This document shows positions 25,928 through 41,194 of a stretch of 64,000 nt of DNA, piece after piece. The notes under the pieces are model-generated. The model searched no databases and had not been told where the DNA came from. It saw only the letters and a program-made list of their open reading frames with translations. Position numbers and translations under genes: made by a program. Origin of the DNA: an uncultured Candidatus Saccharibacteria bacterium (GTDB lineage Bacteria; Patescibacteriota; Minisyncoccia; UBA6257; Colwellbacteraceae); the NCBI GenBank assembly GCA_964643135.1, contig CAZXPC010000001.1:39726-103725 (forward strand). The letters are read 5' to 3'. The first letter of the stretch is position 1. Every line of letters begins with the position of its first letter.

Positions 25928-26016
25928 CCAATAACAAATAACCAATAACTCATAACAAATAACAGGAATGCATTTGTATCCCGTTATAAGTCATCAGTTA
26001 TAAGTAATAAGTTAAA
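25928..26016 (+). repeat. AATAAC/GTTAT imperfect-palindrome element copy 1 (subtype A, AATGCATT core) between rpsL and rpsG
   Basis: Left arm ccaataacaaataaccaataactcataacaaataacag. Centre gaatgcatttgtatccc. Right arm gttataagtcatcagttataagtaataagttaa, ending 4 nt before ATG. Confidence 0.7.
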
Positions 26017-26019
26017 AAT

Positions 26020-26505
26020 ATGAGAAAGAAACGTAATTATGCGAGAGTAAGGCGGCCGGATGTTAAGTATCAAGATGTAGCTTTGGCCCGCTTCATTAAC
26101 AAAATGATGTACGACGGCAAGAAATCAACCGCTGAACAAGTTGTCTACGGCGCTTTGGACATTGTCGCCAAAGAAACCAAGAAGGACGCCCTGGTTGTTT
26201 TCACAACTGCCATGGAGAATGCCTCGCCGCTAGTAGAAACCGTTTCGCGAAGAGTTGGCGGCGCTAACTATCAGATTCCTGAAGAAGTCCGCCCAGCCCG
26301 CAAATTTATCTTATCTTCAAGGTGGATTATCGAAGCTACCCGCGGCAAGAAGGGTAAGCCAACGGCTGAGAAGCTTGCTGAGGAATTGATGGCCGCTTTC
26401 AAGAACGAAGGCGCCGCAATCAAGAAGAAGCTTGATGTTCACAGGATGGCCGAAGCCAACCGCGCTTTTGCCCACTTTGCCCGCAAGAGAACTCCAACGA
26501 GCTAA
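26020..26505 (+). CDS. rpsG: 30S ribosomal protein S7
   Basis: RRPDVKYQDVALARFINKMMYDGKKSTAEQVVYGA ... typical S7. 161 aa. Confidence 0.9.
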   Translation: MRKKRNYARVRRPDVKYQDVALARFINKMMYDGKKSTAEQVVYGALDIVAKETKKDALVVFTTAMENASPLVETVSRRVGGANYQIPEEVRPARKFILSSRWIIEATRGKKGKPTAEKLAEELMAAFKNEGAAIKKKLDVHRMAEANRAFAHFARKRTPTS

Positions 26506-26592
26506 CTAATAACAAATAACAAATAACTCATAACAAATAACAGAAATGCATTTGCATCCCGTTATAAGTTATCAGTAATAAGTAATAAGTTA
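26506..26592 (+). repeat. AATAAC/GTTAT imperfect-palindrome element copy 2 (subtype A) between rpsG and fusA
   Basis: taactaataacaaataacaaataactcataacaaataacag - aaatgcatttgcatccc - gttataagttatcagtaataagtaataagttaat, then ATG. The centre contains the perfect palindrome AAATGCATTT. Confidence 0.7.
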
Positions 26593-26594
26593 AT

Positions 26595-28694
26595 ATGCGT
26601 AAATACCCAATTGAAAAAGTTCGGGACATTGGAATCATCGCGCACATCGATGCCGGTAAGACCACCGTTTCGGAGCGTATTCTTTTCTACACCGGAGTTT
26701 CTCACAAAATCGGCGAGGTGCACGAGGGCGAAACCGTCATGGACTGGATGGACCAAGAGCGTGAGCGAGGCATTACGATCACTTCCGCTGCGACCACCTG
26801 TTTTTGGACCCCGACTTATGTAAACGGCGACAAAAAGTTTGAACACCGAATTAACCTAATCGATACCCCGGGCCACATCGACTTTACGGTTGAAGTTAAG
26901 CGATCGCTCCGGGTGCTTGACGGCGCGGTCGTAGTTTTCGACGGCGTTTCCGGCGTGGAACCGCAGTCCGAAACCAACTGGCACTATGCCGACGACTACA
27001 AAGTTCCTCGCATCTGTTTTATCAACAAGCTCGACCGCATGGGCGCGAGTTATGAATTTTGTTTGAAATCTATCCGAGAAAGGCTCACTCCGAACGGCGT
27101 ACCAATTCAACTTAACATCGGCACCGAAGGCGAATTTAAAGGCGTGATCGACCTCATTAAGATGAAGGCCTATGGCTTTGAAGGCGACAAGGGCGAGACA
27201 ATCGTTGAAATTGAAATTCCGGAAAATATGAAGGAAGAAGCTCAAACTTGGAGAAACCAGATGATCGAAAAGATTGCCGAGACCGACGACGCGATGTCGA
27301 CCAAATATTTGGAAGGCGCCGAATTCACAGTTGACGAATTGAAGGCGGCCTTAAGGAAGGCGACCTTGAAAGTGCAGCTGGTGCCAATCGTTTGCGGATC
27401 GGCTTTGAAGAACAAAGGAGTGCAGCTCGTGCTCGACGCTGTTATCGACTACTTGCCGTCTCCGCTCGATGTGCCTCCGGTTAAAGCGATTGACCAGAAA
27501 ACCGGTTTGGAAGTTTTGCGCCACCCGGATGATACCGAACCTTTCACAGCACTTGCGTTCAAAATCGCGGCTGACCCGTATGTGGGCAGTCTTACTTTTT
27601 TCCGCGTATATTCAGGAACATTGAAGAAGGGTAGCTATATTGTGAACGTGACTAAGGGCAGGCAGGAACGCGTTGGCCGAATATTGCGTATGCATGCCAA
27701 CGAACGAGAAGAAATTGATGAAATCTATGCCGGTGAAATCGGCGCACTGGTAGCTCTTAAAGACACTACAACCGGAGACTCATTGACCGACCCGGAACAC
27801 CCGGTAGTTTTGGAAAAAATCGACTTCCCGGAACCGGTTATCAGCCAGAGAATTACCCCGAAGACTAAGGCTGATCAGGAAAAACTTGGCGTGGCTTTGA
27901 GGCGATTGGCCGAAGAAGATCCGACTTTCCGCGTAGCTGGCGACCCAGAAACCGGTGAAACTATCATTTCCGGCATGGGCGAATTGCACTTGGAAGTTTT
28001 GGTTGAACGTATGCGCCGGGAATTTAGCGTCGACACGACTGTCGGCCGGCCGCAGGTTGCTTACAAAGAAACTATTTTGGGCGAATCTGAAGCTGAAGGT
28101 AAGTTCATCAAGCAGTCCGGCGGCAAGGGTCAGTACGGTCACGTCTGGCTCCGTATCAAGCCTTTGGAACGCGGGAAGGGCTTTGAATTCATCGATGCTA
28201 CTAAGGGTGGATCAATTCCTAAAGAATTTATTAAGCCGGTTGAGAAGGGTGTCGAAGAGGCCCTTAGCCGCGGTGTAGTCGCAGGTTTTAAGATAATTGA
28301 TACCGAGGTCACCGTTTTTGACGGATCTTACCACGATGTCGACTCGTCTGAAGCAGCCTTCAAGATCGCCGGTTCGATGGCTTTGCAGGAATGCGTTAAG
28401 AAAGCTAAACCGGTTATTCTGGAACCAATTATGCGCGTGCAGACGCTGGCGCCGGTAGAATTCTTCGGCGACATCACGGGCGACATCTCTTCAAAGCGAG
28501 GACGCATTAACGAAATCACTGACAGAGGAATGATTAAAGTGACCGACTCCGAAGTTCCGCTTTCTGAAATGTTCGGCTATGCGACCAAGCTGAGGTCCAT
28601 GACCCAGGGCCGAGGATCCTTTACGATGGAATTTTTGAAGTACGAACCGGTGCCGAAGGCGGTAGAGGCTGACATCGTCGCCGGCAAAAAGTAG
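26595..28694 (+). CDS. fusA: Elongation factor G
   Basis: G1 [22 protein letters not shown]. 699 aa with EF-G domains IV-V ([11 protein letters not shown]...). Confidence 0.95.
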
Positions 28695-28833
28695 AAATTT
28701 CTTTAAAACCAGCGATCTTCTGCGTTGCGGGTCCCGACAAACTTCGTCGAAGTAGTATTCAAAGACTACATCTCCTCGTTTGTCCTCCCGCGCCTTGGAT
28801 CTCATCTGATTTTATAGAAATTTAAGTATAGTA

Positions 28834-28866
28834 AAAAAGCGTCCCGTTCTACGGGGCGCTTTTTGA
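28834..28866 (+). terminator. Intrinsic terminator after fusA
   Basis: Stem AGCGTCCCG / CGGGGCGCT with 5-nt loop followed by TTTT. Confidence 0.55.
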
Positions 28867-28870
28867 CCTC

Positions 28871-28898
28871 TTGACGAATTATTTTAGATCAGTATACT
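28871..28898 (+). promoter_or_regulatory. Promoter-like TTGACG-N16-TATACT upstream of island gene G5, followed by a 150-nt leader with an 8-bp inverted repeat AATTTGAG/CTCAAATT (about 28918-28942)
   Basis: Hexamers and inverted repeat seen in sequence. Confidence 0.4.
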
Positions 28899-29056
28899 AG
28901 CAAGTCTGTTCTTTATAAATTTGAGTTACTAAACCTCAAATTCTGCGGTGGACAGAAGGAGATTTCTTCTAAGAAGCCTCTTCCTGCCCCCGCGGAATTT
29001 GTGTGTTTCGAGCCTCACGGCTTGAGATACGCGGATGATGCGGTTCCCAGTCAGCA

Positions 29057-29842
29057 ATGAAAGGGGACGATGGACATATGGGGATGTCCACCGAAAAACG
29101 ATGGAGTCGATACAACATGTCGCCTGCGACCCAGACCACCACGACGCCGATCCGCAAGACCGTTGACGTCAGCGCCGAAGCGATCCGCGAGGACGCGATC
29201 AGCCAGTTCCGCGCGACCCAGAAGCAGCCGCAGTTCAAGGCCATCATCGGCCAAGTCCTGCCGGCCGGGACGCTCGAGAACATGAGCCGCTCGATCCAGC
29301 AGTCGCGCGCCAGCACGCTCACGGGCATCGTCGGCGTTCAGGAGGGCAACCTCCCGATCGTACTGCACCTGCCCAGCCACGTGCTCTCGCTCTGCGACCG
29401 CCTCGCGATCGCGAACGGCGGCAAGCTCGAGAACGTGCCGACCTGGATCAACCAGGTCCAGCGCCGCACCCCCTGGGCCATGATGCCCGAGGGGCAGCTC
29501 CAGGGAACGACCGACTTCGACCTCCAGGGCGTGCCGACCGTCAACATCACGACGGAGATCCGCACCTGCCAGGCCGAGAAGCGCAGCTTCCCGACGACCG
29601 AGCAGCTCGTCGACGCGATCAACGCCGCGCGGGCCAAGGCGCAGCACGACGACGAGGAGTTCGTCCTCGTCGGCAAGACGTTCCTCGCGTTCGGCGACAT
29701 CGCCGGCCAGGGCTACACGCCGACCATCACGGTCGGCGAGGACACCCAGACGCTCGGCCGCGTGCCGTTCGTCGAAGGCGAGGAGCTCGAAGACGAGGCC
29801 GTGCTCGCGAACTACGACACGGTCTACGGCTTCTCCAGCTGA
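29057..29842 (+). CDS. GC-rich island gene G5: soluble protein of unknown function
   Basis: 261 aa. Roughly 65% GC with about 90% GC3 (cgc/gcg/atc/ctc/gag/ggc codons). AAGGGG SD-like sequence upstream. Perfect 11-bp stem GGACCTAGATT/AATCTAGGTCC plus T6 terminator at about 29868-29930. Antisense ORFs 28969-29328 and 29051-29899 are shadow ORFs. Confidence 0.6.
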   Translation: MKGDDGHMGMSTEKRWSRYNMSPATQTTTTPIRKTVDVSAEAIREDAISQFRATQKQPQFKAIIGQVLPAGTLENMSRSIQQSRASTLTGIVGVQEGNLPIVLHLPSHVLSLCDRLAIANGGKLENVPTWINQVQRRTPWAMMPEGQLQGTTDFDLQGVPTVNITTEIRTCQAEKRSFPTTEQLVDAINAARAKAQHDDEEFVLVGKTFLAFGDIAGQGYTPTITVGEDTQTLGRVPFVEGEELEDEAVLANYDTVYGFSS

Positions 29843-30006
29843 ACCCGCCCCCGTGTGCGTCCCAATCGGACCTAGATTAAAGCAATAAGAGTCTTGCACT
29901 CTGAGCTAACAATCTAGGTCCACTTTTTTACTCAAAAATATTGACTTAGATTTTCGCTGGTATAATATTATGTCGCGGGAGACATTCCGCTGTGAGGTAC
30001 GCAAAA

Positions 30007-30225
30007 ATGAAGACAGGAATTGTATTGGCACTGGGAGCAATGCTCGCGCTCACGTTCGTGACCATGGCCATTGCCCAGCCCGCTCAGGCTGAAGCAGGGA
30101 GAGTGTGCTATGTTGGTCCCACATGGATAGCTGACCAGCAGTACACGCAGGGCTGGGTCGCATGCTGTCCGGACGAGAGCGACCCTACCACCTGTGGTTA
30201 CGGCGGCTACTGGGTCAAGACCTAG
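30007..30225 (+). CDS. GC-rich island gene G6: small secreted cysteine-rich peptide (72-aa precursor, about 44-aa mature)
   Basis: Start at ATG 30007 (the ORF-track start at 29992 is GTG). Signal peptide MKTGIVLALGAMLALTFVTMAIAQPAQA/EAG. Mature part has 4 Cys (VCYVGP...ACCPDESDPTTCGYGGYWVKT). GAGGT SD 9 nt upstream. Hairpin plus T6 after stop. Confidence 0.5.
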   Translation: MKTGIVLALGAMLALTFVTMAIAQPAQAEAGRVCYVGPTWIADQQYTQGWVACCPDESDPTTCGYGGYWVKT

Positions 30226-30568
30226 TAGATCCAAAGGTCCACAATATCGACACGGTGTCTTTTTTCCTCTCACAACGCCCGAATGAAAGCTCTTAGAGCA
30301 ATTAAGTCGGGTTTATTTTTATCCGGCAATTTCTAAACGGCAAACGGCAACTCATTTTATAGGCGAGCGAGTTACTTTAGATCGGACTTCGAGCGCTGAT
30401 CTTTGTATTTCGGGGTGCCCCGTTGCGAAGCAATGGGGAGCGCAGCGACGGATGGCGAAGCGAAAACCGCAACGCGAGTTTGAGCGAGAGACTATCCGGT
30501 AAGCGAGCAGTTATCCACACCCATAACAATTTAAAGATGTTTTGGACAAGTTTTTTATCTTTCCACAG

Positions 30569-30596
30569 TTGACAGAGAGACGCACTCTAATATAGA
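30569..30596 (+). promoter_or_regulatory. Promoter-like TTGACA-N16-TATAGA about 210 nt upstream of tuf
   Basis: Consensus -35. Sits at the end of a 570-bp non-coding gap. Confidence 0.35.
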
Positions 30597-30808
30597 ATTA
30601 GAAACCTTAAGTCGCAAAGACTTAATCTTTGATAACTGTTGGAAATTTCGTTCATCTTTTGAGCGAGACGAAGTGAAAATTTTGATGCATACAAGAAGCT
30701 TGTACGCTGAAAAATTTTTGCAAAGTCGCAGCCAAAATATGGACGGAAGTGACAAAGTTGTTATCGAAGAATAAGTCTAAATATTAATTAACCAAATTTA
30801 GCAAAACT

Positions 30809-32008
30809 ATGGCAGAGAAAGCAAAATTTGAACGTACCAAACCGCACGTTAACGTCGGTACTATTGGTCACGTCGACCACGGCAAGACATCTCTTACCGC
30901 GGCTATTACTCACGTCCTTTTCTTGAAGGGCTGGGCGAAGAAAGAAGAAAAGGTTGACGACATCGACAACGCTCCGGAGGAAAAAGCTCGTGGTATTACT
31001 ATCGCGCTTCACCACTCTGAATACGAGTCTCAAAAGAGACACTACGCTCACATAGATGCACCAGGGCACGCTGACTACATCAAGAACATGATCACCGGTG
31101 CGGCTCAGATGGACGGCGCAATTTTAGTTGTGTCGGCTGCTGACGGCCCGATGCCTCAGACTCGAGAACACATTCTTCTTGCTAAACAGGTTGGAGTACC
31201 TGCCATAGTGGTATTCCTTAACAAATGCGACATGGTTGATGACCCAGAACTTATTGGTCTCGTTGAAGCCGAAGTCCGCGAACTTTTGACTAAATACGGT
31301 TTCCCAGGCGACACCACTCCAGTTATCCGCGGTTCAGCTGTTAAAGCTCTTGAAGCTAAGTCAGCTGACGACGCCGGTGCTAAGCCAATTCTTGAATTGG
31401 TTGAAGCTTTGGACAACTACATCCCAGATCCTAAGAGAGAAACTGACAAGCCGTTCTTGATGCCGATTGAAGACATCTTCTCGATTGAAGGCCGAGGTAC
31501 CGTTGTAACCGGCCGTGCCGAAAGAGGTATCTTAAAAGTTAACGACGAAGTTGAAATCATTGGTCTAAGGCCAACTCAGAAGACTATCGTTACCGGTATC
31601 GAAATGTTCAACAAGCTTTTGGATGAAGTCCAGGCTGGAGACAACGTTGGAATTTTGCTCCGAGGTTTGAAGAAAGAAGACGTTGAACGCGGCCAGGTTA
31701 TTTGTAAGCCAGGCGCTGTTACTCCGCACACTGAATTTGAATGTGAAATCTACGTTCTGACCAAAGAGGAAGGCGGCCGACACACTCCGATTTTCCCAGG
31801 CTACAAGCCACAGTTCTACATTAGAACTACGGACGTAACCGGTGAAGTTACTTTGGCTACTGGCACTGAAATGGTTATGCCAGGCGACACCGTTAAAGTT
31901 TCTGTTAAGCTTATCGCTCCAGTTGCGCTTGAAGAGAAACAGCGTTTCGCTATCCGAGAAGGCGGCAAGACCGTGGGTGCCGGCGTGGTCACTAAGATCA
32001 CTAAATAG
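30809..32008 (+). CDS. tuf: Elongation factor Tu
   Basis: [29 protein letters not shown]. 399 aa. Confidence 0.97.
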
Positions 32009-32052
32009 CGCTTGACAGTTCGCTCCTAGTACATTAAATTCTACACACCAAT

Positions 32053-32379
32053 ATGGCAAAGACAGATACACAAATCGATAAGATCCGCTTGAGGATTAAG
32101 TCATACGACCACCGGTTGATTGACAACTCCTGCAAGCAGATCATCGAAACCCTGGAGAGGCACGATGCCAAAATCGTGGGCCCAATCCCATTGCCAACAG
32201 AATTTAAGAAATATACGGTGAACCGTTCGACTTTCGTTCACAAGGAATCCCGCGAACAGTTTGAGATGCGCATCCACAAGCGCGTGATCGACATCTTGAA
32301 CCCGGTCACAAAGATCATCGAATCCCTAAAAGATTTAAATCTTCCCGCCGGAGTCGACGTCGAAATCAAAATGGTATAG
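32053..32379 (+). CDS. rpsJ: 30S ribosomal protein S10
   Basis: [39 protein letters not shown] ... HKRVIDI. Followed by perfect hairpin AGCTCCCC-GAAA-GGGGAGCT at about 32385-32404. Confidence 0.93.
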
Positions 32380-32532
32380 AACAAAGCTCCCCGAAAGGGG
32401 AGCTTCTGGTTATAATACAATCATGCACAAACCCGAATTAATTCTTTTGCTGATAGCGCTCGTGATCCTTGGAGCCTATATTTACTTCTACCAAGGGCCG
32501 ATTACGATGCAGACAATCCACCGCTTCGGCTT

Positions 32533-33312: not shown

Positions 33313-33321
33313 TATCAAGAA

Positions 33322-33406
33322 CAGATAACGCATAACTGATAACAAATAACAGAAAAGAAGCGAAAGCCAATTGTTATGAGTTATAAGTGATTAGTTATAA
33401 GTTAAA
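33322..33406 (+). repeat. AATAAC/GTTAT imperfect-palindrome element copy 3 upstream of rplC
   Basis: acagataacgcataactgataacaaataacag - aaaagaagcgaaagccaa - ttgttatgagttataagtgattagttataagttaaat, then ATG. Confidence 0.65.
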
Positions 33407-34802: not shown

Positions 34803-34803
34803 T

Positions 34804-35646
34804 ATGAAACACTATAAGCCATATACAAAGCAGAGAAGGCACATGACAACCGTTGATTACTCGGTCTTGTCAGATGTGAAGCCGATGAAGCGAGCGACTT
34901 ATGATTTAAAGAAGAACATGGCGCGCAACAACCAAGGCCGAATTACCGTGCGTCATCAGGGTGGTGGCGTGAAGAGGCTCTACCGAGAAGTCGACTTTGG
35001 CCAGACCAAGCTTAATGTTCCGGGCCGAGTTGAACACTTGGAATATGATCCATACAGGACATCTTTTATCATGAGGGTGGTCTTTAAAGACGGCGACAGG
35101 AGATATATGATCGCTCCAAATGGCGTTAAAGTCGGTGACCCAATCTTGATTGCGGAAAACGCCGCACTGACTCTGGGCAATCGTTTGCAATTAAAGAATT
35201 TCCCGATTGGCTATTTGGTGCACAATGTTGAGATCAACCCCGGTAAAGGAGGCCAAATTATCCGTAGCGCCGGTGGAGAAGCTCAAGTTTTGGCTCATGA
35301 ACACGGCTACACCCACTTGAAGATGCCGTCAGGAGAAATCAGGAAGTTTTTGTGGACTAACTATGGCTCCATGGGCAAGGTTTCTAATCCAGACTGGAAT
35401 TTAACCGTTATCGGCAAGGCCGGACGATCAAGAATGATGGGCATTAGGCCGACCGTCCGAGGCTCGGCGATGAACCCGGTTGACCACCCATACGGAGGAG
35501 GTGAAGGTGCACAGCCGCGAGGAACCCGCAAGCCGAAAACGATGTGGGGTAAGGTCGTGGGCGGAGTTAAGACCCGAAACCGCAAGAAGTGGTCGAATGA
35601 TTTAATCGTTCAGAGGAGAGTCAGCGTGAGAGCGAAGAAAGATTAA
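34804..35646 (+). CDS. rplB: 50S ribosomal protein L2
   Basis: RHQGGGVKRLYREVDF ... PNG.K.GD ... MNPVDHPYGGGEG. 280 aa. Confidence 0.93.
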   Translation: MKHYKPYTKQRRHMTTVDYSVLSDVKPMKRATYDLKKNMARNNQGRITVRHQGGGVKRLYREVDFGQTKLNVPGRVEHLEYDPYRTSFIMRVVFKDGDRRYMIAPNGVKVGDPILIAENAALTLGNRLQLKNFPIGYLVHNVEINPGKGGQIIRSAGGEAQVLAHEHGYTHLKMPSGEIRKFLWTNYGSMGKVSNPDWNLTVIGKAGRSRMMGIRPTVRGSAMNPVDHPYGGGEGAQPRGTRKPKTMWGKVVGGVKTRNRKKWSNDLIVQRRVSVRAKKD

Positions 35647-35682
35647 GACCAACGAGCAACCTACGAATAAAAATATAAATCC

Positions 35683-36024
35683 ATGAGCAGAAGTTCAAAA
35701 AAAGGACCATACGTAGACCCAAGACTGATCAAGAAACTTAGCGCGGCCAGTAAAGATGGCAAAGGCGCGAAGACAGTTATTAAGACTTGGTCAAGGGATT
35801 CGGAAATTTCTCCGGAAATGATCGGCTATACTTTCGGCGTCCACAACGGCAAGGATTTTATCGAGGTTTTCGTAACCGAAGAGATGATCGGCCACAAGCT
35901 CGGCGAATTTTCTCTGACACGCAAGTTTATCAGACACGGCGGCAAGATCCAGAAAGATTTGGAAATAAAGGCGAAAGAAGCTGAAAAGGCAACCGCCGTA
36001 GCGGCTAAAACTGGCGGCAAGTAA
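35683..36024 (+). CDS. rpsS: 30S ribosomal protein S19 (C-terminal Lys/Ala-rich extension)
   Basis: [18 protein letters not shown] ... [48 protein letters not shown]. Confidence 0.9.
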
Positions 36025-36035
36025 TATTTAAATAT

Positions 36036-36533
36036 ATGCAACAAGCAACGGCAAAATTAAGTAACCTGAGTATCACCCCGCGTAAAGTGAGGTTATTGGT
36101 TGATGTGATCCGCGGCAAGCATGTTAACGCCGCCTTGGCTCAGATTCAGATGGCTAATATCCGCCCGGCCGATGCTATTAAAAAGCTGCTGCTTTCAGCT
36201 ATTTCTAACGCCAAAAATCAGAAAATGGACGTGAATAAACTTTACGTTAAGACGATTATGGTCAACACCGGACCGATGCTGAAGCGCTTTTTGCCCCGCG
36301 CGCGCGGATCGGCGACCGAACTTCAAAAGAAATACAGCCACGTGATTGTAGTTTTAGCTGAATCTGATACAGTAAAAGCTCCAAATTATTTGATCTTGGC
36401 AAAACCGAAAAAGAACAAAAAACCGGTTAAGGAAACGACCAAGAAAGAGAAACCGAAAAAAGAAGCTGAAGAAAAGATCGGCGGCGAAAAGAAAGGCTTC
36501 GTCAAGCAAATATTCAATAGAAAATCAGTATAA
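36036..36533 (+). CDS. rplV: 50S ribosomal protein L22 (C-terminal Lys-rich extension)
   Basis: ATAKLSNLSITPRKVRLLVDVIRGK ... PRARGSATELQKKYSHVIVVL. Confidence 0.88.
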   Translation: MQQATAKLSNLSITPRKVRLLVDVIRGKHVNAALAQIQMANIRPADAIKKLLLSAISNAKNQKMDVNKLYVKTIMVNTGPMLKRFLPRARGSATELQKKYSHVIVVLAESDTVKAPNYLILAKPKKNKKPVKETTKKEKPKKEAEEKIGGEKKGFVKQIFNRKSV

Positions 36534-36547
36534 GCTAATTAATCACT

Positions 36548-37243
36548 ATGGCACGAAAAGTTAACCCAAATGTATTCAGGCTAGGCATTAATCGGACATG
36601 GGACTCCCGGTGGATTAACTTACGAAACATGAAAACGTGGCTCGCCGAAGATGAGGCTATTCGCGAGATCATTATGAAAAAGATCGGTTTGGCCGGCATC
36701 TCTAGAATCGAGATAGAGCGAACGGGGGACCGATATAAGATATTCATTAAGGCCGCCAAACCAGGTATTATTATCGGCCGCGGCGGCAAGGGTATCGAAG
36801 ACCTGACCAAGCTCCTCGAGAAATCGATCAAGGGACGCGTGGCTTTGAGCCTGAACGTTGAAGAATTGAAAAGGACCGAGGTGTCGTCATACGTTATTGC
36901 GCAGAACATTGCATGGGATTTGGAGAAGAGAATGAGGTACCGCCGGACGATCAAGAAGTATCTTGATATGGTTATGCAAAATCGAGACGCCAAGGGCTGC
37001 AAGATCGCTGTTTCAGGCAGGCTTGACGGCAATGAAATCGCGCGCGGCGAGCACTTGTCTAAGGGTAAATTGCCTTTGTCGACCTTACGAGCCAACATCG
37101 ATTACGGAACCGCTACGGCTATAACTGCCATGGGAACGATCGGTATTAAGGTTTGGATTTACAAGGGAGAAATCTTTGCTAAACAAATAACTGATAACAA
37201 ATCACGAATAACAAATACAAAAACAGAGAATCAGTCGTTATAA
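36548..37243 (+). CDS. rpsC: 30S ribosomal protein S3
   Basis: ARKVNPNVFRLGINRTWDSRW ... KH domain GIIIGRGGKGIEDL ... GRLDGNEIARGEHLSKGKLPLSTLRANIDYG. The 3' end runs into repeat element copy 4. Confidence 0.92.
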   Translation: MARKVNPNVFRLGINRTWDSRWINLRNMKTWLAEDEAIREIIMKKIGLAGISRIEIERTGDRYKIFIKAAKPGIIIGRGGKGIEDLTKLLEKSIKGRVALSLNVEELKRTEVSSYVIAQNIAWDLEKRMRYRRTIKKYLDMVMQNRDAKGCKIAVSGRLDGNEIARGEHLSKGKLPLSTLRANIDYGTATAITAMGTIGIKVWIYKGEIFAKQITDNKSRITNTKTENQSL

Positions 37244-37270
37244 GTTATCTGTTATAAGTAATAAGTTAAA
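37183..37270 (+). repeat. AATAAC/GTTAT imperfect-palindrome element copy 4 (overlaps rpsC 3' end, ends 5 nt before rplP ATG)
   Basis: aaacaaataactgataacaaatcacgaataacaaatacaaaaacagagaatcagtcgttataagttatctgttataagtaataagttaaa. Confidence 0.65.
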
Positions 37271-37275
37271 AAAAC

Positions 37276-37695
37276 ATGTTAGTCCCAAAGAAAGTAAAAC
37301 ACAGGAAGTGGCACAAAGGCCGATCGAAGTCGAGGCTTGTTGAAACACGCGGCACGAGCTTGGCTTACGGCAGCTACGGTTTGCAGGCCACTCAGCCTTT
37401 TTGGCTTAATTCCAGGCAGATCGAGGCGGGACGCCGAACGATCACCAACTTCGTTAAGCGCGGCGGCAAGATCTGGATTCGCGTTTTCCCGGATAAGCCG
37501 GTAACAAAAAAGCCGCCTGAAGTTACTTTGGGAGGAGGTAAGGGTGCGGTTGACCGATACGTTTTCCCGGTCCGACCAGGTAGAATAATTTTCGAAATGG
37601 ATGGAATTCCAGAAGAAACCGCCCGCGAGGCTTTGCGATTGGCCGGCCACAAGCTGCCTTTTACCACCAGGTTTGTTAAAAAGGGACAGTTGTAA
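37276..37695 (+). CDS. rplP: 50S ribosomal protein L16
   Basis: LVPKKVKHRKWHKGRSKS ... GSYGLQATQPFWLNSRQIEAGRRTIT ... KIWIRVFPDKPVTKKP. Confidence 0.93.
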   Translation: MLVPKKVKHRKWHKGRSKSRLVETRGTSLAYGSYGLQATQPFWLNSRQIEAGRRTITNFVKRGGKIWIRVFPDKPVTKKPPEVTLGGGKGAVDRYVFPVRPGRIIFEMDGIPEETAREALRLAGHKLPFTTRFVKKGQL

Positions 37696-37708
37696 AAAAC
37701 AATTGACT

Positions 37709-37909
37709 ATGAAAAAGAACGAAATTAAAAAACTTAAGGAACGAAACACGGCTGATCTGAGCAAAGATCTTCATGAATCGCGCGAGCACTTGAGGGTACT
37801 GAAATTCGAACTGGCCCAGGGCAAGATCAAGAACGTGCGTTCAATCAACGAAACCAAGAAAAAGATCGCGAGGATCTTAACATTCATCAAGTTGCAACAT
37901 GGCAAATAA
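37709..37909 (+). CDS. rpmC: 50S ribosomal protein L29
   Basis: Start at internal ATG 37709: MKKNEIKKLKERNTADLSKDLHESREHLRVLKFELAQGKIKNVRSINETKKKIARILT. The ORF-track start at 37601 overlaps rplP and is likely spurious. Confidence 0.85.
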   Translation: MKKNEIKKLKERNTADLSKDLHESREHLRVLKFELAQGKIKNVRSINETKKKIARILTFIKLQHGK

Positions 37910-38174
37910 AGAAATACAACACAGACAGCTAGAAGGAATCGTCACGTCTGACAAGATGATGAAGACGGTTGTGGTCGCAGTTTCCAGAACGACCGTGCAC
38001 CCGAAGTATCACAAAAGATACACTGTGACGACCAAATTCAAAGCTCACAGCGAGGATAACGAATACAAGGTGGGCGACCGCGTCGTAATCGAGGAGACCA
38101 GGCCGATGTCGAGAGACAAGAGATGGAAAGTCGTAAAGCTCATCGCCAAGGCCGCTCTGGCTCAGGCTGAGTAA
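37899..38174 (+). CDS. rpsQ: 30S ribosomal protein S17
   Basis: LEGIVTSDKMMKTVVVAVSRTTVHPKYHKRYTVTTKFKAHSEDNEYKVGDRVVIEETRPMSRDKRWKVVKLI. Confidence 0.9.
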   Translation: MANKEIQHRQLEGIVTSDKMMKTVVVAVSRTTVHPKYHKRYTVTTKFKAHSEDNEYKVGDRVVIEETRPMSRDKRWKVVKLIAKAALAQAE

Positions 38175-38198
38175 AAGAAATCAGAATAAATACTAACC

Positions 38199-38567
38199 AT
38201 GATACAAGAAAGGTCCATACTAAAAGTAGCAGACAACTCCGGCGCTAAAACCGTTCGCTGTTTCAGGGTGCTGGGCGGCAGCCGCAAGAGGTATGCTCAC
38301 TTGGGCGAGATCCTGATCGCTTCCGTTCAGGTGGCTGAGCCGAGAAAAGCGGTTAAAAAGAAGGACGTAGTAAAGTGCGTCGTGGTCCGAACCAGGAACC
38401 CGATTCGCCGGCCCGACGGCAGCTACTTGAGGTTTGATGAGAATGCTGTAGTATTGATCGACGAGAAAAAGGAACCGAAGGCGACTCGCGTGTTCGGCCC
38501 GATCCCGAGGGAGATCAAGCAGTTCGGCTATGACAAAATAATTTCGCTCGCCGAAGAAATTGTGTAG
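38199..38567 (+). CDS. rplN: 50S ribosomal protein L14
   Basis: MIQERSILKVADNSGAKTVRCFRVLGGSRKRYAHLGEILIASV ... 122 aa. Confidence 0.95.
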   Translation: MIQERSILKVADNSGAKTVRCFRVLGGSRKRYAHLGEILIASVQVAEPRKAVKKKDVVKCVVVRTRNPIRRPDGSYLRFDENAVVLIDEKKEPKATRVFGPIPREIKQFGYDKIISLAEEIV

Positions 38568-38570
38568 GCG

Positions 38571-38662
38571 AAACAAATAACTAATAACCAATGACTAATA
38601 ACAGAAACACAATAAATCAGCCCAACCCCTTATTCGTTATGGGTTATAAGTTATAAGTTAAT
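38571..38662 (+). repeat. AATAAC/GTTAT imperfect-palindrome element copy 5 (subtype B) between rplN and rplX
   Basis: gaaacaaataactaataaccaatgactaataacagaaacacaataaatcagcccaaccccttattcgttatgggttataagttataagttaatt. Confidence 0.65.
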
Positions 38663-38666
38663 TCAC

Positions 38667-38972
38667 ATGAACATCCTAAAAGGCGACAAAGTAATGATCA
38701 TGAAAGGCAAGGATCGCGGCAAGTCCGGGAAGGTTCTTAGCGTTACGCCCGGCAATAATACCCTCGTCATCGAGAACCTGAACCTATACAAGAAATCGGT
38801 GAGGCCGAAAAAGCAGGGCGAGAAAGGCAGTATTATTGATTCGCCCCGGCCAGTCAGATTGGATAATGTCATGCTCGTTTGCTCTTCCTGCGGCAAGCCT
38901 GCTAGGACTGGCAGAAAGGTCAACAAGGATAAAAAAGAAAGATATTGTAAAAAATGCAACGCTATCGTTTAG
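38667..38972 (+). CDS. rplX: 50S ribosomal protein L24 (with C-terminal CxxC...CxxC zinc-ribbon-like tail)
   Basis: KGDKVMIMKGKDRGKSGKVLSV ... KOW motif. C-terminal CSSCGKPARTG...YCKKCN. Confidence 0.88.
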   Translation: MNILKGDKVMIMKGKDRGKSGKVLSVTPGNNTLVIENLNLYKKSVRPKKQGEKGSIIDSPRPVRLDNVMLVCSSCGKPARTGRKVNKDKKERYCKKCNAIV

Positions 38973-39442
38973 AAAAAGTTGTGGTCGCGACCGGAGTAGG
39001 TAAATTGAGGAACAGCCCTAAATTTACTGAAAATATTTTACCCGATGTGATCAGGGATTTTGAAGCCATCGTCGGACAGCACCCGGCCACCCGCGGCGCC
39101 AAGAAGTCTATTTCGACTTTCAAGACCAGAACCGGAGACATCGTCGGCATTGTGGCTACGCTCCGCGGCAAAAAGATGAGGCACTTCTTAGAGAGGCTTA
39201 TTAATGTGGCTTTGCCCCGCGTTCGGGACTTCCGAGGCATCAACAATAAGAGTTTTGATGACCGAGGGCATATTTCGATCGGCATTAAAGAACACGTGAT
39301 CTTTCCCGAGATCAACCAGGAAAAGACCAACACAACTTTCGGCTTCCAGGTTACGATTGTCGGCAACACCAAGAATAAGGAAGAGGGCGCCGCATTCGCT
39401 AAAGAATTGGGCATTCCGATGATGAAAACCGCTCAGAAATAA
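38954..39442 (+). CDS. rplE: 50S ribosomal protein L5
   Basis: RYRLEKVVVATGVGKLRNSPKFTENILPDVIRDFEAIVGQHPATRGAKKSISTFKTRTGDIVG ... RDFRGI ... 162 aa. Confidence 0.92.
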   Translation: MQRYRLEKVVVATGVGKLRNSPKFTENILPDVIRDFEAIVGQHPATRGAKKSISTFKTRTGDIVGIVATLRGKKMRHFLERLINVALPRVRDFRGINNKSFDDRGHISIGIKEHVIFPEINQEKTNTTFGFQVTIVGNTKNKEEGAAFAKELGIPMMKTAQK

Positions 39443-39486
39443 TGGAATAAATTGCAATTTTAACCGATTTACCTTAAATTATCACA

Positions 39487-39672
39487 ATGGCAAAAACATC
39501 AGTCATAGCAAGATCGCAAAAGAAGCCCAAATTCTCAACGAGGATTGTTAGGCGATGTTTTCGCTGCGGCCGCAAAAGAGCTTATATGAGGGACTTCGGA
39601 ATTTGCAGAATTTGCTTTAGAGAGATGGCGACCTTGGGCCGAATCCCGGGAGTTAGAAAATCAAGCTGGTAG
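39487..39672 (+). CDS. rpsZ: 30S ribosomal protein S14 type Z (zinc-binding, 61 aa)
   Basis: [23 protein letters not shown] Cys4 motif. Length is 61 aa. Confidence 0.9.
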
Positions 39673-39682
39673 GAACACGCAT

Positions 39683-40066
39683 ATGTATCATAATACAATC
39701 ATAAAAATTAAAAACGGATTGGCGAGAAAGTTCGAAAGAGTAAAGGTTCCTTACTCGAACTTAGATATGGCTATTTTGGAGAGCCTCGCTAAGCACGGCT
39801 ATCTTGAATCCGTTTCCAAAAAGGGCCGCGGTGTTAAAAGGATTATCGAGGCCAAGCTTAAGTATGATAAAACCGGCCAGCCGTCTATTTCCGGAGTTAA
39901 ATTCATCAGCCGGTCTTCGCGCAGGCTTTATGTCGGCTACAAAGATATGAAAAAATCGCACGACGGATATGGATATTTTATCTTCTCAACTCCGAAGGGC
40001 ATTTTGACCAACATTGAAGCTCGGAAGAATAAAGTCGGCGGGGAAATATTATTCGAAATCTGGTAG
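39683..40066 (+). CDS. rpsH: 30S ribosomal protein S8
   Basis: 127 aa. ... GYGYFIFSTPKGILTNIEARKNKVGGEILFEIW C-terminus typical of S8. Confidence 0.9.
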   Translation: MYHNTIIKIKNGLARKFERVKVPYSNLDMAILESLAKHGYLESVSKKGRGVKRIIEAKLKYDKTGQPSISGVKFISRSSRRLYVGYKDMKKSHDGYGYFIFSTPKGILTNIEARKNKVGGEILFEIW

Positions 40067-40093
40067 TTCGACAGTTTCACTCTATATAAACAC

Positions 40094-40651
40094 ATGTCAA
40101 AAATTGCTAAAAAACCAATAATTATCCCCGATGGCGTGACCGCTGTTTTGAAAGACCACATGGTGGAAATCAAGGGCAAGAACGCGACTTTGAACGTTCC
40201 TGTGCTGGAAGGCGTTAAGGTTGAGATTAAGGATAAGGCCATCACTCTTACCTCGGACAGGGCGACTAAGCAGGCCAGTTCAAACTGGGGCACAACCAGC
40301 GCGCACTTAAAGAACGCCATCGCAGGATCAAATGCGGATTTTGTTAAAGAGCTCTCGGTTGTCGGAATCGGTTTCAAGGCAGCGCTTGAGGCCAAGGACC
40401 TAGTTTTGAGCCTTGGGTTCAGCCACCCGGTGAGATTTGCTATTCCGGAAGGCGTTAAGATTACCGTTGAAAAGAACATTGTGAAGGTTGCCGGTCCGAA
40501 CCGATGGCTGGTCGGAGAGACGGCCGCCAGGATTCGTGATTTTAAGAGACCAGAGCCGTATCAGGGCAAGGGCATCCGCTACAAAGATGAGATCGTTAGG
40601 AAGAAAGCGGGTAAGAAAGCAGCGGCCGCAGCCGGTCCTGCCGCAAAATAA
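40094..40651 (+). CDS. rplF: 50S ribosomal protein L6
   Basis: SKIAKKPIIIPDGVTAVL ... two-domain L6 pattern ... PEPYQGKGIRYKDE. Ala-rich C-terminal tail. Confidence 0.9.
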   Translation: MSKIAKKPIIIPDGVTAVLKDHMVEIKGKNATLNVPVLEGVKVEIKDKAITLTSDRATKQASSNWGTTSAHLKNAIAGSNADFVKELSVVGIGFKAALEAKDLVLSLGFSHPVRFAIPEGVKITVEKNIVKVAGPNRWLVGETAARIRDFKRPEPYQGKGIRYKDEIVRKKAGKKAAAAAGPAAK

Positions 40652-40654
40652 CAT

Positions 40655-40746
40655 ATAACTCATAACCAATGACTAATAACAGAAAAACAAAAAATCAGTT
40701 TGAATCCCTATCCGTTATGGGTTATAAGTTATCAGTCATAAGTTAA
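40655..40746 (+). repeat. AATAAC/GTTAT imperfect-palindrome element copy 6 (subtype B) between rplF and rplR
   Basis: catataactcataaccaatgactaataacagaaaaacaaaaaatcagtttgaatccctatccgttatgggttataagttatcagtcataagttaatat. Confidence 0.65.
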
Positions 40747-40750
40747 TATC

Positions 40751-41092
40751 ATGCACGCAAAAACATTAAGGAAAATTAGGAAGGCGACCAGAAACAGAGC
40801 CAAAATTCACGGCACTGCGGCTTTGCCGAGGCTTTCGGTTTTCCGCAGCAACCGCTATTTGCGCGCTCAGCTAATTGACGACAACGGAGGCGTCACCATT
40901 ATCTCGGGCAGTACCGACAGCAAAGTTAAAGCCAACAAGACTAAGCAGGCTGAAAATTTAGGAGCGGTGATTGCTAAGGCCGCCAAGGAGAAGGGCATAG
41001 CTCAAGTTGTCTTTGACCGAGGATCATATAAATATCATGGTCGAGTAAAAGCTCTGGCGGAATCCCTCCGAGCCAACGGTATCAAAATCTAA
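40751..41092 (+). CDS. rplR: 50S ribosomal protein L18
   Basis: [29 protein letters not shown] ... [19 protein letters not shown]. Confidence 0.9.
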
Positions 41093-41188
41093 CTCATAAC
41101 TCATAACCAATGACTAATAACAAAAGCAAAAAACTGAATACATTAAGAATAACCGTTATGGGTTATAAGTTATCAGTTATAAGTTAAA
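41091..41188 (+). repeat. AATAAC/GTTAT imperfect-palindrome element copy 7 (subtype B) between rplR and rpsE
   Basis: taactcataactcataaccaatgactaataacaaaagcaaaaaactgaatacattaagaataaccgttatgggttataagttatcagttataagttaaatc. Confidence 0.65.
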
Positions 41189-41194
41189 TCTACT

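What the first reader, a model, noticed from the sequence alone, without database searches (positions are those of the whole stretch)
25928..41194. Family of seven ~90-nt AATAAC/GTTAT imperfect-palindrome elements punctuating the ribosomal-protein operons, each ending 3-10 nt before a start codon
Copies sit before rpsG, fusA, rplC, rplP (overlapping the rpsC 3' end), rplX, rplR and rpsE. Each has a left arm of tandem (A)ATAAC units, for example aataacaaataacaaataactcataacaaataac. A variable centre follows: subtype A carries the palindrome AAATGCATTT, while subtype B is A-rich with CCGTTATGGG. The right arm is made of the complementary GTTATAAGTTAT units ending in AAGTTAA(T/A) just before the ATG. 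The two arms can pair into a long bulged hairpin, so every one of these r-protein cistrons would have its translation-initiation region embedded in the 3' arm of a conserved stem-loop. Typical bacterial S10/spc operons have tight intergenic junctions. Regularly spaced, sequence-related structured elements inside them suggest either a MITE-like mobile repeat that has colonised the operon, RNase III or RNase E processing sites that segment the polycistron (rnc is present at 54561), or a common translational operator that coordinates r-protein synthesis by an unknown binder. This differs from the classical protein-specific autoregulatory leaders.
Basis: seen in the sequence. Interest (0 to 1): 0.7.

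Follow-up and report, generated by a model that had tools for sequence, protein, structure and literature searches.

The report
Heptad-armed hairpin cassettes between ribosomal genes
Seven copies of a ~90-base repeated palindrome built from 7-base units sit between ribosomal-protein genes of a tiny uncultured bacterium, and they belong to a fast-changing, apparently undescribed class of small inserts that fill such gene junctions in its relatives.

Summary
Seven same-strand elements, each with 5 ATAAC-NN heptads, a 19-33 nt centre and 5 GTTAT-NN heptads, end 1-7 nt before the start codons of rpsG, fusA, rplC, rplP, rplX, rplR and rpsE. None lies elsewhere in about 74 kb of this genome.

They are not conserved operators. 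The closest relatives (SecY 72-78% identical) have tight junctions instead. A Wolfebacteria genome carries the same family at a partly different set of junctions.

The wider finding is a class. In 80 related Paceibacteria operons, 189 of 791 ribosomal-protein junctions are 61-300 nt long, and most fold far better than shuffles. Some operons have 8-14 of about 17 junctions filled. The inserts are palindromes whose arms are tandem 7-8 nt units of many unrelated sequences. In two sister-genome pairs, a junction element is either near-identical or replaced by an unrelated one.

ATAAC-type elements also exactly fill tRNA-tRNA spacers, and ATAAC arrays occur in phage contigs.

Best reading: proliferating MITE/REP-like cassettes, co-transcribed, folding into a periodically mismatched hairpin that brings the upstream stop codon next to the downstream start codon. 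A positive function is not excluded.

Closest prior art is the TAACTGA heptamer repeats of Beggiatoaceae (MacGregor 2015).

The parts
25924..26015 (+). Element e1, at the rpsL|rpsG junction. An extra unit CTAAC holds the rpsL stop codon (25925-25927). It has 5 left heptads at 25931-25963, the centre AGGAATGCATTTGTATCCC, and 5 right heptads at 25983-26015. The rpsG ATG is at 26020.
26502..26593 (+). Element e2, at the rpsG|fusA junction. It is 93% identical to e1. The rpsG stop codon (26503-26505) lies in the extra first unit. The fusA ATG is at 26595.
33318..33405 (+). Element e3, in the 5' leader of the rplC operon. It lies downstream of a promoter-like site (33227-33255) and a terminator-like hairpin (33291-33306). 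The rplC ATG is at 33410.
37180..37269 (+). Element e4, at the rpsC|rplP junction. The rpsC reading frame runs through the left arm and centre, giving the tail ...KQITDNKSRITNTKTENQSL, and stops at a TAA in the right arm (37241-37243). One unit is ATCAC, which removes the in-frame TAA. The rplP ATG is at 37276.
38570..38661 (+). Element e5, at the rplN|rplX junction. The rplN stop is TAG at 38565-38567. The rplX ATG is at 38667.
40648..40746 (+). Element e6, at the rplF|rplR junction. The rplF stop TAA (40649-40651) lies inside the first unit. The rplR ATG is at 40751.
41089..41187 (+). Element e7, at the rplR|rpsE junction. It is the best-paired copy. The rplR stop TAA (41090-41092) lies inside the first unit. 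The rpsE ATG is at 41195.
41719..41753 (+). Degenerate array with a left arm only, at the rpsE|rplO junction. Its units are ATAACTT TTAACTT TGAGCTT TTTACTT TAAACTT. It ends 6 nt before the rplO ATG at 41760.
51508..51519 (-). Two-unit direct array ATAACCAATAAC between two paralogous genes on the - strand. The first TAA is the upstream stop codon. The downstream ATG follows after 8 nt.

Best explanation
The elements are copies of one family of small non-coding insertion cassettes with heptad-repeat arms. They resemble MITEs or REP elements, and no transposase has been identified. They have multiplied in, and turn over rapidly at, the junctions between cistrons of very highly expressed polycistronic units in Paceibacteria (Patescibacteria/CPR).

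They are transcribed as part of the operon mRNA. In RNA the two arms should zip into a hairpin of 6-bp helices separated by a mismatch every 7 nt. That hairpin loops out the ~90-nt insert and leaves the upstream stop codon and the downstream start codon at the foot of one stem.

This geometry is what makes such inserts tolerable in tightly coupled operons that lack Shine-Dalgarno sequences. It probably also makes downstream initiation depend on a ribosome terminating upstream and opening the outer units.

Shown here: family membership, architecture, distribution, absence in the nearest relatives, turnover between sister genomes, orientation bias and pairing statistics.

Inferred: the mobility mechanism, folding in vivo, and any effect on translation or RNA processing.
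For: **Repeat family and fixed architecture.**
- All seven copies follow the same plan of 5 heptads, a centre and 5 heptads, with related centres.
- All seven lie in the ribosomal-protein clusters; none elsewhere in 64 kb plus 10 kb of flank.

**Not conserved by position.**
- Three relatives with SecY 72-78% identical lack the elements and have tight junctions. One of them carries an unrelated ~100-nt inverted-repeat element at two other junctions.
- Wolfebacteria carries the same family at rplD|rplW, rpsC|rplP, rpmC|rpsQ, rplN|rplX and rpsN|rpsH, plus a second family at six further junctions.

**A class, not a single sequence.**
- 189 of 791 Paceibacteria ribosomal-protein junctions are 61-300 nt long, with a median fold z of -3.2.
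- Occupancy is bimodal, either 0-4 or 8-14 of about 17 junctions per operon.
- The arms are tandem units of many different sequences. Period 7 is found in 21 junctions, period 8 in 7, and in no shuffled control.
- One locus (L207) holds 100%-identical copies at two different junctions.

**Turnover between sister genomes.**
- In L167 against L168, and in L175 against L179, a junction element is either 93-100% identical or replaced by an unrelated family of similar length. Codon third positions in the flanking genes are 89-94% identical.

**Other contexts.**
- The elements exactly fill tRNA-tRNA spacers in 7 of 119 loci and ribosomal-protein junctions in 6 of 119; a seventh locus has one about 900 nt upstream of tuf.
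- The flanking gene's TAA stop codon is often the terminal unit of the element.

**Pairing.**
- Pentamer pairs are 86.8% paired. The first spacer base pairs, with UA and CG both seen. The second spacer base pairs in only 4 of 68 cells.

**Orientation.**
- All 7 window copies and all 5 Wolfebacteria copies have the A-rich end of the centre on the 5' side.
- The reverse orientation would create a terminator-like hairpin followed by a T run (- strand, 26560-26543).
Against: - No transposase, target-site duplication or empty-site allele was found for this family. TA or TAA at both ends is part of the repeat unit, so it says nothing about duplication.
- Only about 74 kb of this genome could be read, so genome-wide distribution is unknown.
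- Orthologous elements in sister genomes are often better conserved than synonymous sites. Junctions tend to stay filled with something of the same length. Both observations fit a positive function better than tolerated junk.
- Dense occupancy of the most constrained operon in a streamlined genome is unexpected for purely selfish DNA.
- RNA folding and any coupling effect are predictions only.
Confidence: 0.5

Rival explanations
1. The elements are selected RNA processing or stability cassettes. The intercistronic hairpins would be cut by RNase III or another RNase, or would block exonucleases. This would segment polycistronic mRNAs and tRNA precursors into units, as the intergenic hairpins of phage T7 mRNAs do (T7 comparison from my own knowledge).
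For: - rnc is present at 54561-55247.
- The elements sit between units of long, highly expressed transcripts, including tRNA-tRNA spacers where translation is irrelevant.
- The same architecture arises from unrelated sequences.
- Junctions stay filled with an element of similar length when the family is swapped.
- Non-replaced elements are 99-100% identical against 89-94% at codon third positions.
- Orientation relative to transcription is uniform.
Against: - Most related operons have none or few of these elements, so they are dispensable.
- The stems are AU-rich 6-bp helices with a mismatch every 7 nt, which makes a poor classical RNase III substrate.
- Compensatory change is not significant.
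- No transcript data were available.
Confidence: 0.18
2. The elements are a common cis-operator read by one trans-acting factor. This could be an RNA-binding protein such as S1, a cold-shock protein or CsrA recognising AUAAC heptads, as proposed for TAACTGA repeats. It could instead be a DNA-binding ribbon-helix-helix protein like omega of pSM19035, which binds arrays of 7-bp WATCACW units in direct or inverted order. Either would coordinate the expression of the flanked genes.
For: - The ATAAC core recurs across phyla with lineage-specific spacers.
- In the window, substitutions in internal units fall almost only on the central base of the pentamer, 11 of 12.
- The unit reads W-ATAAC-W, one base away from the omega heptad (PMC9499535).
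- Forward ATAAC arrays lie just upstream of Shine-Dalgarno sequence plus ATG in phage contigs and upstream of start codons in Beggiatoaceae (PMC4679880).
Against: - Sister and related operons use many unrelated unit sequences in the same architecture, and swap families at a single junction.
- Tolerance of change at the central base is not seen in the broad set.
- Among the 10 window ORFs scanned against Pfam, none matched a ribbon-helix-helix or other candidate binder family; most window ORFs were not scanned.
- The arrays sit inside operons and not at promoter-like sites.
- The start-proximal arm is in the reverse orientation, opposite to the Beggiatoaceae arrangement.
Confidence: 0.08
3. The elements arose in place and are not mobile. 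Each would have formed at its own junction by replication slippage, which favours 7-nt units, together with hairpin template switching. They would then persist as near-neutral sequence.
For: - Period 7 dominates among the tandem arrays.
- Heptanucleotide repeats are the commonest long simple repeats in many prokaryotes (Mrazek 2007, as summarised in PMC4679880).
- Direct-only arrays exist at 41719 and 51508.
- Unit sequences are very diverse.
Against: - Copies at different junctions share homologous, non-repetitive centres and a fixed 5+5 unit count.
- Identical ~100-nt copies occur at different junctions.
- The same family, with the same centre ends, occurs in genomes whose SecY is only about 62% identical to the window's.
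Confidence: 0.1
4. The elements are classical protein-specific autoregulatory leaders, for example the S7 site between rpsL and rpsG, the S8 site, or the L4 site.
For: e1 occupies the rpsL|rpsG spacer. In E. coli that spacer carries the S7 operator, according to my own knowledge.
Against: - The same sequence is repeated before seven different genes.
- There is no Rfam match, even at E <= 1.
- The elements are absent at the orthologous junctions of close relatives.
Confidence: 0.02

Closest known systems
TAACTGA heptamer direct repeats of marine Beggiatoaceae, some Cyanobacteria and Bacteroidetes (MacGregor 2015, PMC4679880)
   Same: - The 7-nt unit shares the TAAC core, since TAACTGA repeated reads ATAACTG.
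- The repeats are intergenic, lie in regions that lack Shine-Dalgarno sequences, and abut start codons.
- They are found before fusA and rplC and inside ribosomal-protein operons.
- TAA stop codons occur in all three frames.
- Phyletic distribution is sporadic.
- Function is unknown.
   Different: - Those are direct arrays of 2-6 units in forward orientation, ending about 1 nt before the start codon. Only one inverted set was seen among 170.
- Here two opposed arrays of 5 units flank a centre, the start-proximal arm is in the reverse orientation, and the spacers are mixed rather than TG.
- Neither the palindromic architecture nor the many-sequence class in Patescibacteria was described there.
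Bacterial MITEs such as Neisseria Correia elements, and REP/BIME/REPIN elements (comparison from my own knowledge)
   Same: - Short, multicopy, non-coding intergenic palindromes.
- Co-transcribed with flanking genes as hairpins.
- Family subtypes, lineage-specific bursts, and variable presence between relatives.
   Different: - The arms are tandem 7-8 nt units with a mismatch in every period, rather than unique terminal inverted repeats.
- There is no GTAG head, and no RAYT or IS630-type gene was seen.
- No clear target duplication was found.
- The elements strongly prefer junctions inside ribosomal-protein operons and tRNA clusters.
- Replacement by an unrelated family of the same length was observed in addition to presence/absence differences.
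Heptad operator/centromere arrays of the ribbon-helix-helix protein omega (ParB of pSM19035; PMC9499535)
   Same: - Contiguous 7-bp units in direct and inverted order, with at least 4 units per array.
- The unit W-ATAAC-W differs from WATCACW at the central base only.
   Different: - The omega arrays overlap promoters of plasmid genes and have a known binder.
- Here the arrays lie inside chromosomal operons and no binder is known.
- Many unrelated unit sequences share the architecture, which argues against a single sequence-specific protein.
Intercistronic RNase III hairpins of phage T7 polycistronic mRNAs (comparison from my own knowledge)
   Same: Irregular hairpins with internal loops lie between the cistrons of highly expressed polycistronic RNAs.
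   Different: The T7 hairpins are not built of tandem units, are not multicopy repeat families, and their cleavage has been demonstrated. Here cleavage is untested.

Membership tests
TAACTGA heptamer repeats (MacGregor 2015) | Tandem direct repeats of the exact heptamer TAACTGA | tested here: not met
   The core ATAAC is shared, but only 2 of 28 left-arm spacers are TG. The spacers are AA, CA, TC, TA and others.
TAACTGA heptamer repeats (MacGregor 2015) | Forward orientation, ending a few nt upstream of a start codon | tested here: not met
   In all seven copies the forward array is distal and the reverse-complement array (GTTAT) abuts the ATG. Only the minor arrays at 41719 and 51508 fit this feature.
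TAACTGA heptamer repeats (MacGregor 2015) | Intergenic, in regions without a Shine-Dalgarno sequence, enriched before translation genes | tested here: met
   All copies lie in junctions of the str/S10/spc clusters, and no Shine-Dalgarno-like motif is visible upstream of the ribosomal-protein genes.
MITE (non-autonomous DNA transposon) | Terminal inverted repeats, size under 500 bp, no coding capacity | tested here: met
   The arms are 33 nt each and inverted. Total length is 83-99 nt. TAA occurs in all three frames.
MITE (non-autonomous DNA transposon) | Target-site duplication flanking the element | tested here: inconclusive
   TA or TAA is present at both ends in 5-7 of 7 copies, but it is part of the repeat unit (TAAC...GTTA).
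MITE (non-autonomous DNA transposon) | Presence/absence variation at orthologous sites | tested here: met
   The elements are absent from the same junctions in L120, L122 and L123. Wolfebacteria has a different set of occupied junctions. Sister genomes show family swaps. No strain-level empty site was found for the window organism itself.
MITE (non-autonomous DNA transposon) | A cognate transposase with matching ends somewhere in the genome | not testable with these tools
   Only about 74 kb of the genome was readable. None of the 10 window ORFs scanned against Pfam is a transposase; the rest of the window's ORFs were not scanned.
REP/BIME/REPIN | 20-40 nt imperfect palindrome with a conserved GTAG-type head, and an associated RAYT gene | tested here: not met
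   The elements have heptad-array arms and no GTAG head. The RAYT gene could not be tested genome-wide.
Ribosomal-protein autoregulatory leaders (Rfam families) | Match to a curated covariance model, and conservation at the orthologous position | tested here: not met
   There is no Rfam hit at the gathering threshold or at E <= 1 over 25300-42100. The elements are absent in relatives.
Omega-type heptad operator arrays (ribbon-helix-helix binding) | At least 2-4 contiguous 7-bp units in direct or inverted order | tested here: met
   Each element has 5 + 5 contiguous heptads.
Omega-type heptad operator arrays (ribbon-helix-helix binding) | Consensus WATCACW, overlap with promoters, and a cognate ribbon-helix-helix gene | tested here: not met
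   The consensus is WATAACW, with a single ATCAC unit in e4. The elements contain no promoter-like site. None of the 10 window ORFs scanned against Pfam matched a ribbon-helix-helix family. Many unrelated unit sequences occur in related operons.
RNase III processing hairpin | Cleavage of the transcript within the stem by RNase III | not testable with these tools
   The rnc gene is present. The predicted stem is 6-bp helices with periodic 1x1 mismatches. No transcript data were available.

The most novel reading that the evidence does not exclude
These 'heptad-zipper' hairpins may be a selected, convergent class of intercistronic device in Patescibacteria that lack Shine-Dalgarno sequences. Under this reading, the periodically mismatched stem holds the upstream stop codon and the downstream start codon together and masks the start region until a terminating ribosome unzips the outer units. 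The stem would equally insulate neighbouring tRNAs. Function would depend on architecture and not on sequence. Cassettes could therefore be exchanged freely between strains while each junction stays filled and each resident cassette stays under purifying selection.
Probability: 0.25. Interest if true: 0.85.

Novelty: new variant of a known kind. Interest (0 to 1): 0.66.

Why it matters
Ribosomal-protein operons are the most conserved gene arrays in bacteria, and CPR genomes are among the most streamlined.

Finding these operons to be hot spots is therefore unexpected. In some lineages half or more of their junctions hold hairpin cassettes with tandem-repeat arms, and sister genomes swap them.

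If the cassettes are merely tolerated, they show which insert geometry is compatible with translational coupling when there is no Shine-Dalgarno sequence. They would also provide very fast strain markers inside a universal marker locus, and a caution for phylogenomic pipelines and gene callers, because rpsC is extended by one of them.

If the cassettes are selected, they would be a new sequence-independent solution for coupling or processing polycistronic RNA.

The work also widens the unexplained TAACTGA/ATAAC heptamer phenomenon to Patescibacteria, Acidobacteriota, tRNA clusters and phages.

Tried and rejected
- **Rfam.** Searches at the gathering threshold and at E <= 1 found nothing relevant.
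- **Promoter and terminator scan.** The elements carry no promoter-like or terminator-like site on the sense strand.
- **Tolerance of change at the central pentamer base.** This looked like a sign of protein recognition in the window, at 11 of 12 substitutions. It is not reproduced in the broad set of 241 unit triples, so it is kept only as a weak lead.
- **Universal arrangement.** ATAAC arrays followed by GTTAT arrays are not the rule. Viral contigs hold 8 loci of that order and 21 of the opposite order.
- **Omega-like ribbon-helix-helix operator idea.** The format matches. I downgraded it once many unrelated heptads and octads were seen in the same architecture.
- **TA or TAA target duplication.** This cannot be separated from the repeat unit itself.
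- **Covariation test on 17 family members.** Not significant against column shuffles, at 38-40 of 500. One ACAAC:GTTGT double change and UA-to-CG changes at the first spacer base exist.
- **Candidate proteins in the window.** Pfam scans of 10 window ORFs found a PAS protein, RNase III and a citrate-synthase-like domain, but no transposase or ribbon-helix-helix protein.
- **Extending the genome beyond the window.** Only about 10 kb more could be fetched, and it holds no further element. The 169-kb NCBI contig could not be fetched.
- **Literature.** Searches found no description of such elements in CPR.

Full report

Yes. The 12-mer pattern ATAACNNATAAC occurs 28 times in the window against 0.05 expected. 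With one mismatch allowed it occurs 56 times against 3.3 expected. All but a few hits fall in seven clusters, all on the + strand, inside the str, S10 and spc ribosomal-protein clusters.

Gene identities were checked by translation and tblastn. A register-aware extraction shows one fixed plan for all seven:
- five left units of ATAAC plus two spacer bases (33 nt);
- a centre of 19-33 nt that starts A-rich and ends in CC;
- five right units of GTTAT plus two spacer bases, ending in ATAAGTTAA;
- then 1-7 nt and the ATG.

The upstream TAA stop codon lies in the first unit in e1, e2, e6 and e7. rpsC reads through the left arm and centre of e4 and stops at a TAA in its right arm. This gives S3 a tail of about 20 residues that includes ITDN, the predicted translation of such heptads (PMC4679880).

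Further checks:
- e1 and e2 are 93% identical.
- The RNA folds score z = -1.8 to -4.6 against dinucleotide shuffles.
- Two independent public assemblies are identical to the window over 36731-44075 and 40667-43745, which together cover e4-e7.
- No element is found in the other ~48 kb of the window or in ~10 kb of extra flank.
- With roughly 27 of ~80 co-directional junctions lying in the ribosomal-protein clusters, seven of seven there has a chance of about 5e-4. This is my own rough calculation.

**2. What organism is this, and are the elements conserved?**

The SecY protein places the window near Candidatus Colwellbacteria (Paceibacteria, Patescibacteria). The nearest database relatives are only 72-79% identical. 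There is no L30 gene, L15 is short, and no Shine-Dalgarno sequences are visible.

Three of those relatives (L120, L122, L123) have no ATAAC elements. Their junctions are tight where the window has e4-e7. One of them, L123, carries an unrelated ~100-nt inverted-repeat element (TCCCGTTAGAAA...TTTCTAACGGG). It abuts the ATG at rplC|rplD and rplP|rpmC.

So the elements are lineage-specific gains. They are not conserved operators.

**3. The ATAAC heptad is widespread.**

My rough expectation from chance is a few tens. Almost every hit extends into longer heptad arrays.

The hits come from Patescibacteria, Pyrinomonadaceae and other Acidobacteriota, Bacteroidota, Saccharibacteria, Nitrospirota and others. 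Spacers are lineage-specific, for example TG, CA and GA.

Contexts vary. Two stand out:
- Seven loci lie in or next to translation-gene clusters; six are ribosomal-protein junctions, and some are the very junctions used in the window: rpsG|fusA in a Pyrinomonadaceae genome, rplR|rpsE in a Saccharibacteria genome and rpsC|rplP in Wolfebacteria.
- Seven loci have the element exactly filling the spacer between two co-oriented tRNA genes.

The flanking gene's stop codon is very often the TAA of the terminal unit.

Viral contigs also carry such arrays. There the opposite order (GTTAT arrays, then ATAAC arrays) is commoner, at 21 loci against 8. The forward ATAAC array then lies just upstream of a Shine-Dalgarno sequence and ATG, with several arrays per phage.

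**4. Prior art.**

The only description I found is MacGregor 2015 (PMC4679880). It reports TAACTGA direct repeats in Beggiatoaceae, some Cyanobacteria and Bacteroidetes. They are mostly in forward orientation and end about 1 nt before start codons, including before fusA and rplC. Their function is unknown.

That paper reports one inverted set among 170. Searches for CPR, palindromic or heptamer descriptions found nothing closer.

**5. The window's family is one member of a broader architecture.**

I fetched 80 Paceibacteria spc operons through SecY and mapped the window's ribosomal proteins on them.

Of 791 adjacent junctions from rplC to secY, 189 are 61-300 nt long. Their median fold z is -3.2, and 101 have z below -3.

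Occupancy is bimodal. Most operons have 0-4 long junctions. Others have far more:

| Locus | Long junctions |
|---|---|
| L207 | 14 of 16 |
| L168 | 13 of 16 |
| L167 | 12 of 17 |
| L212 | 12 of 14 |
| L173 | 10 of 17 |

In these operons the inserts are 75-140 nt palindromes that run from the stop codon to a few nt before the ATG. In many of them the arms are tandem units of unrelated sequences: AATTTTC/GAAATTA, CTAATGC, CAAAGTG, GTAACTC/TACGGAT, AAAATCA, TACGAAT and others. There are several families per operon and 2-4 copies each, some 100% identical.

Period 7 dominates among strict arrays. It occurs in 21 junctions, period 8 in 7, other periods in about none, and no period in shuffled controls.

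Only 10 of the 189 long junctions carry both ATAAC and GTTAT heptad pairs; 18 carry either. One Wolfebacteria contig has the ATAAC family at five junctions and a second family (AATAATGC/GCATTATT) at six.

Paired 7/8-nt arrays are about three times denser per kb within rplC..secY than outside (51 in 393 kb against 24 in 574 kb). Many of the outside cases lie at secY|adk or before map, greA and lysS.

**6. Structure statistics for the ATAAC family.**

These are based on 17 copies: 7 from the window and 10 from L167 and L168.
- Pentamer pairs form in 86.8% of cells.
- The first spacer base usually pairs. Both U-A and C-G occur, so the helices are 6 bp long.
- The second spacer base pairs in only 4 of 68 cells, far below what random bases would give.

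The stem is therefore a ladder of 6-bp helices with an obligatory 1x1 mismatch every 7 nt.

Overall covariation is not significant against shuffles (38 of 500). Isolated compensatory changes exist, such as ACAAC:GTTGT in L167.

The centre is asymmetric. All 12 copies from the window and Wolfebacteria have the same orientation relative to transcription. In the reverse orientation, at least e2's centre plus the T-rich arm complement would form a terminator-like hairpin. The scan flags exactly this on the - strand of e2.

**7. Turnover.**

Two sister pairs could be compared.

L167 and L168 are sister genomes. Codon positions 1 and 2 are 98.7% identical and position 3 is 89% identical. Their junction elements fall into three groups:
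- near-identical: rplW|rplB 112/112, rpsN|rpsH 104/105, rplF|rplR 109/110, while flanking third positions are about 91-97% identical;
- replaced by the other family at almost the same length: rpsS|rplV and rpsQ|rplN;
- strongly diverged: rplN|rplX at 73%. At rpsC|rplP the arms are conserved and the centre differs at about 9 of 35 positions.

L175 and L179 (third positions 93.7% identical) repeat the pattern. Two junctions are 100% identical, and four carry unrelated elements.

The junctions therefore behave like cassette sites with very fast replacement. Resident cassettes are at least as conserved as synonymous sites, and often more so.

**8. Interpretation.**

The evidence best fits a proliferating, MITE/REP-like class of cassettes with tandem-repeat arms that colonise junctions inside highly transcribed polycistrons.

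The regular ending just before the ATG follows from insertion into junctions that are natively 1-36 nt long.

The predicted hairpin loops out the insert and places stop and start at the foot of one stem. This gives a plausible reason why such inserts are tolerated in coupled operons that lack Shine-Dalgarno sequences and between tRNAs. It also gives a plausible route to coupling by unmasking. These last steps are inference.

A single sequence-specific binder is unlikely, whether an RNA operator or an omega-like DNA heptad reader (PMC9499535). The argument against it is the many unit sequences and the family swaps.

RNase III processing remains open. rnc is present.

Several facts keep a positive, architecture-dependent function alive at roughly one in four: the conservation of resident cassettes, their replacement at equal length, the convergent architecture, and the high occupancy of an essential operon.

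**9. Verdict.**

The finding is real.

The element family is a new variant of known kinds (heptamer repeat arrays and palindromic intergenic repeats). It led to an apparently undescribed, wider phenomenon in Patescibacteria.

Noticed in passing
L004+L099 (MGIW01000002, 16001-32000); also L167 and L168: The Wolfebacteria S10-spc operon carries a second ~110-nt palindromic family: AGAGTGATCGCCAATAATGCAAATCTTACGCAAATAATGC...GCATTATTAAATTTTAATTCGCATTATTCGCGAATACTA. It sits at six junctions, interleaved with five ATAAC-family copies. Its centre shares AGAAATGCAT with the centre of window element e2 (e1 has AGGAATGCAT).
   Followed up: partly
L017, L019, L042, L064, L079, L084, L098: ATAAC heptad palindromes fill (L042, L079: lie within) the spacer between two co-oriented tRNA genes, for example tRNA-Ile|tRNA-Ala and tRNA-Gly|tRNA-Cys. 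In L084 and L098 the centre has the same orientation relative to transcription as in the window.
   Followed up: partly
L137-L157 (IMG/VR contigs): Phage contigs carry GTTAT arrays, a centre and then ATAAC arrays directly upstream of a Shine-Dalgarno sequence and ATG, before ORFs of unknown function. There are two or three such sites per contig (L143, L146, L150-L152).
   Followed up: partly
L175 versus L179; L167 versus L168: Sister genomes with 89-94% identity at codon third positions carry unrelated elements at the same ribosomal-protein junction, while other junction elements are 100% identical. The junctions behave like cassette sites.
   Followed up: yes
window 28695-30808: The fusA-tuf link of the str operon is interrupted by about 2.1 kb. 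This stretch holds an ORF (29057-29842, 261 aa) lying in a 62% GC kilobase with no Pfam match, in a genome of about 47% GC. It also holds a small ORF with a hydrophobic, signal-peptide-like N-terminus (29992-30225). It looks like foreign DNA.
   Followed up: partly
window 32533-33171 (-): A reverse-strand PAS-domain gene separates rpsJ from rplC. As a result, rplC has its own promoter-like site (33227-33255) and a leader with a terminator-like hairpin (33291-33306). Relatives L122 and L123 have a longer conserved leader with the same hairpin.
   Followed up: partly
window 36548-37243: Ribosomal protein S3 (rpsC) gains a C-terminal extension of about 20 residues by reading into element e4. A unit changed to ATCAC removes the in-frame TAA. 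Automatic gene calls for S3 in such genomes may carry repeat-derived tails.
   Followed up: yes
window 30511-30519: A perfect DnaA-box sequence (TTATCCACA) lies in the non-coding stretch upstream of tuf. Cumulative GC skew rises steadily across the window, so nothing indicates an origin here.
   Followed up: no
window 384-2141 and 17540-19300; 432-547 / 17591-17706: Two paralogous ~585-aa genes with no Pfam match on record for the one looked up (MDKETKNCQNCKREF... and MFTTEHKTCQNCRRSF...). The first lies next to TraG/VirB4-like ATPase genes.
   Followed up: no
L122 5418-5548: In a relative, the rpsC|rplP junction holds a ~110-nt insert flanked by a direct duplication of TAATTACCATGTT. That duplication includes the rplP start codon. 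The stretch also contains an assembly gap (a run of N).
   Followed up: no
L120 junctions (rpsH|rplF, rplF|rplR): In the closest relative (SecY 78% identical), short junctions carry direct 8-mer arrays of ATTTAAAG/ATTTAAAT just before the ATG.
   Followed up: no
window 41760-42008: The L15 gene (rplO) is only 82 aa long, and no L30 gene is present between rpsE and rplO.
   Followed up: no
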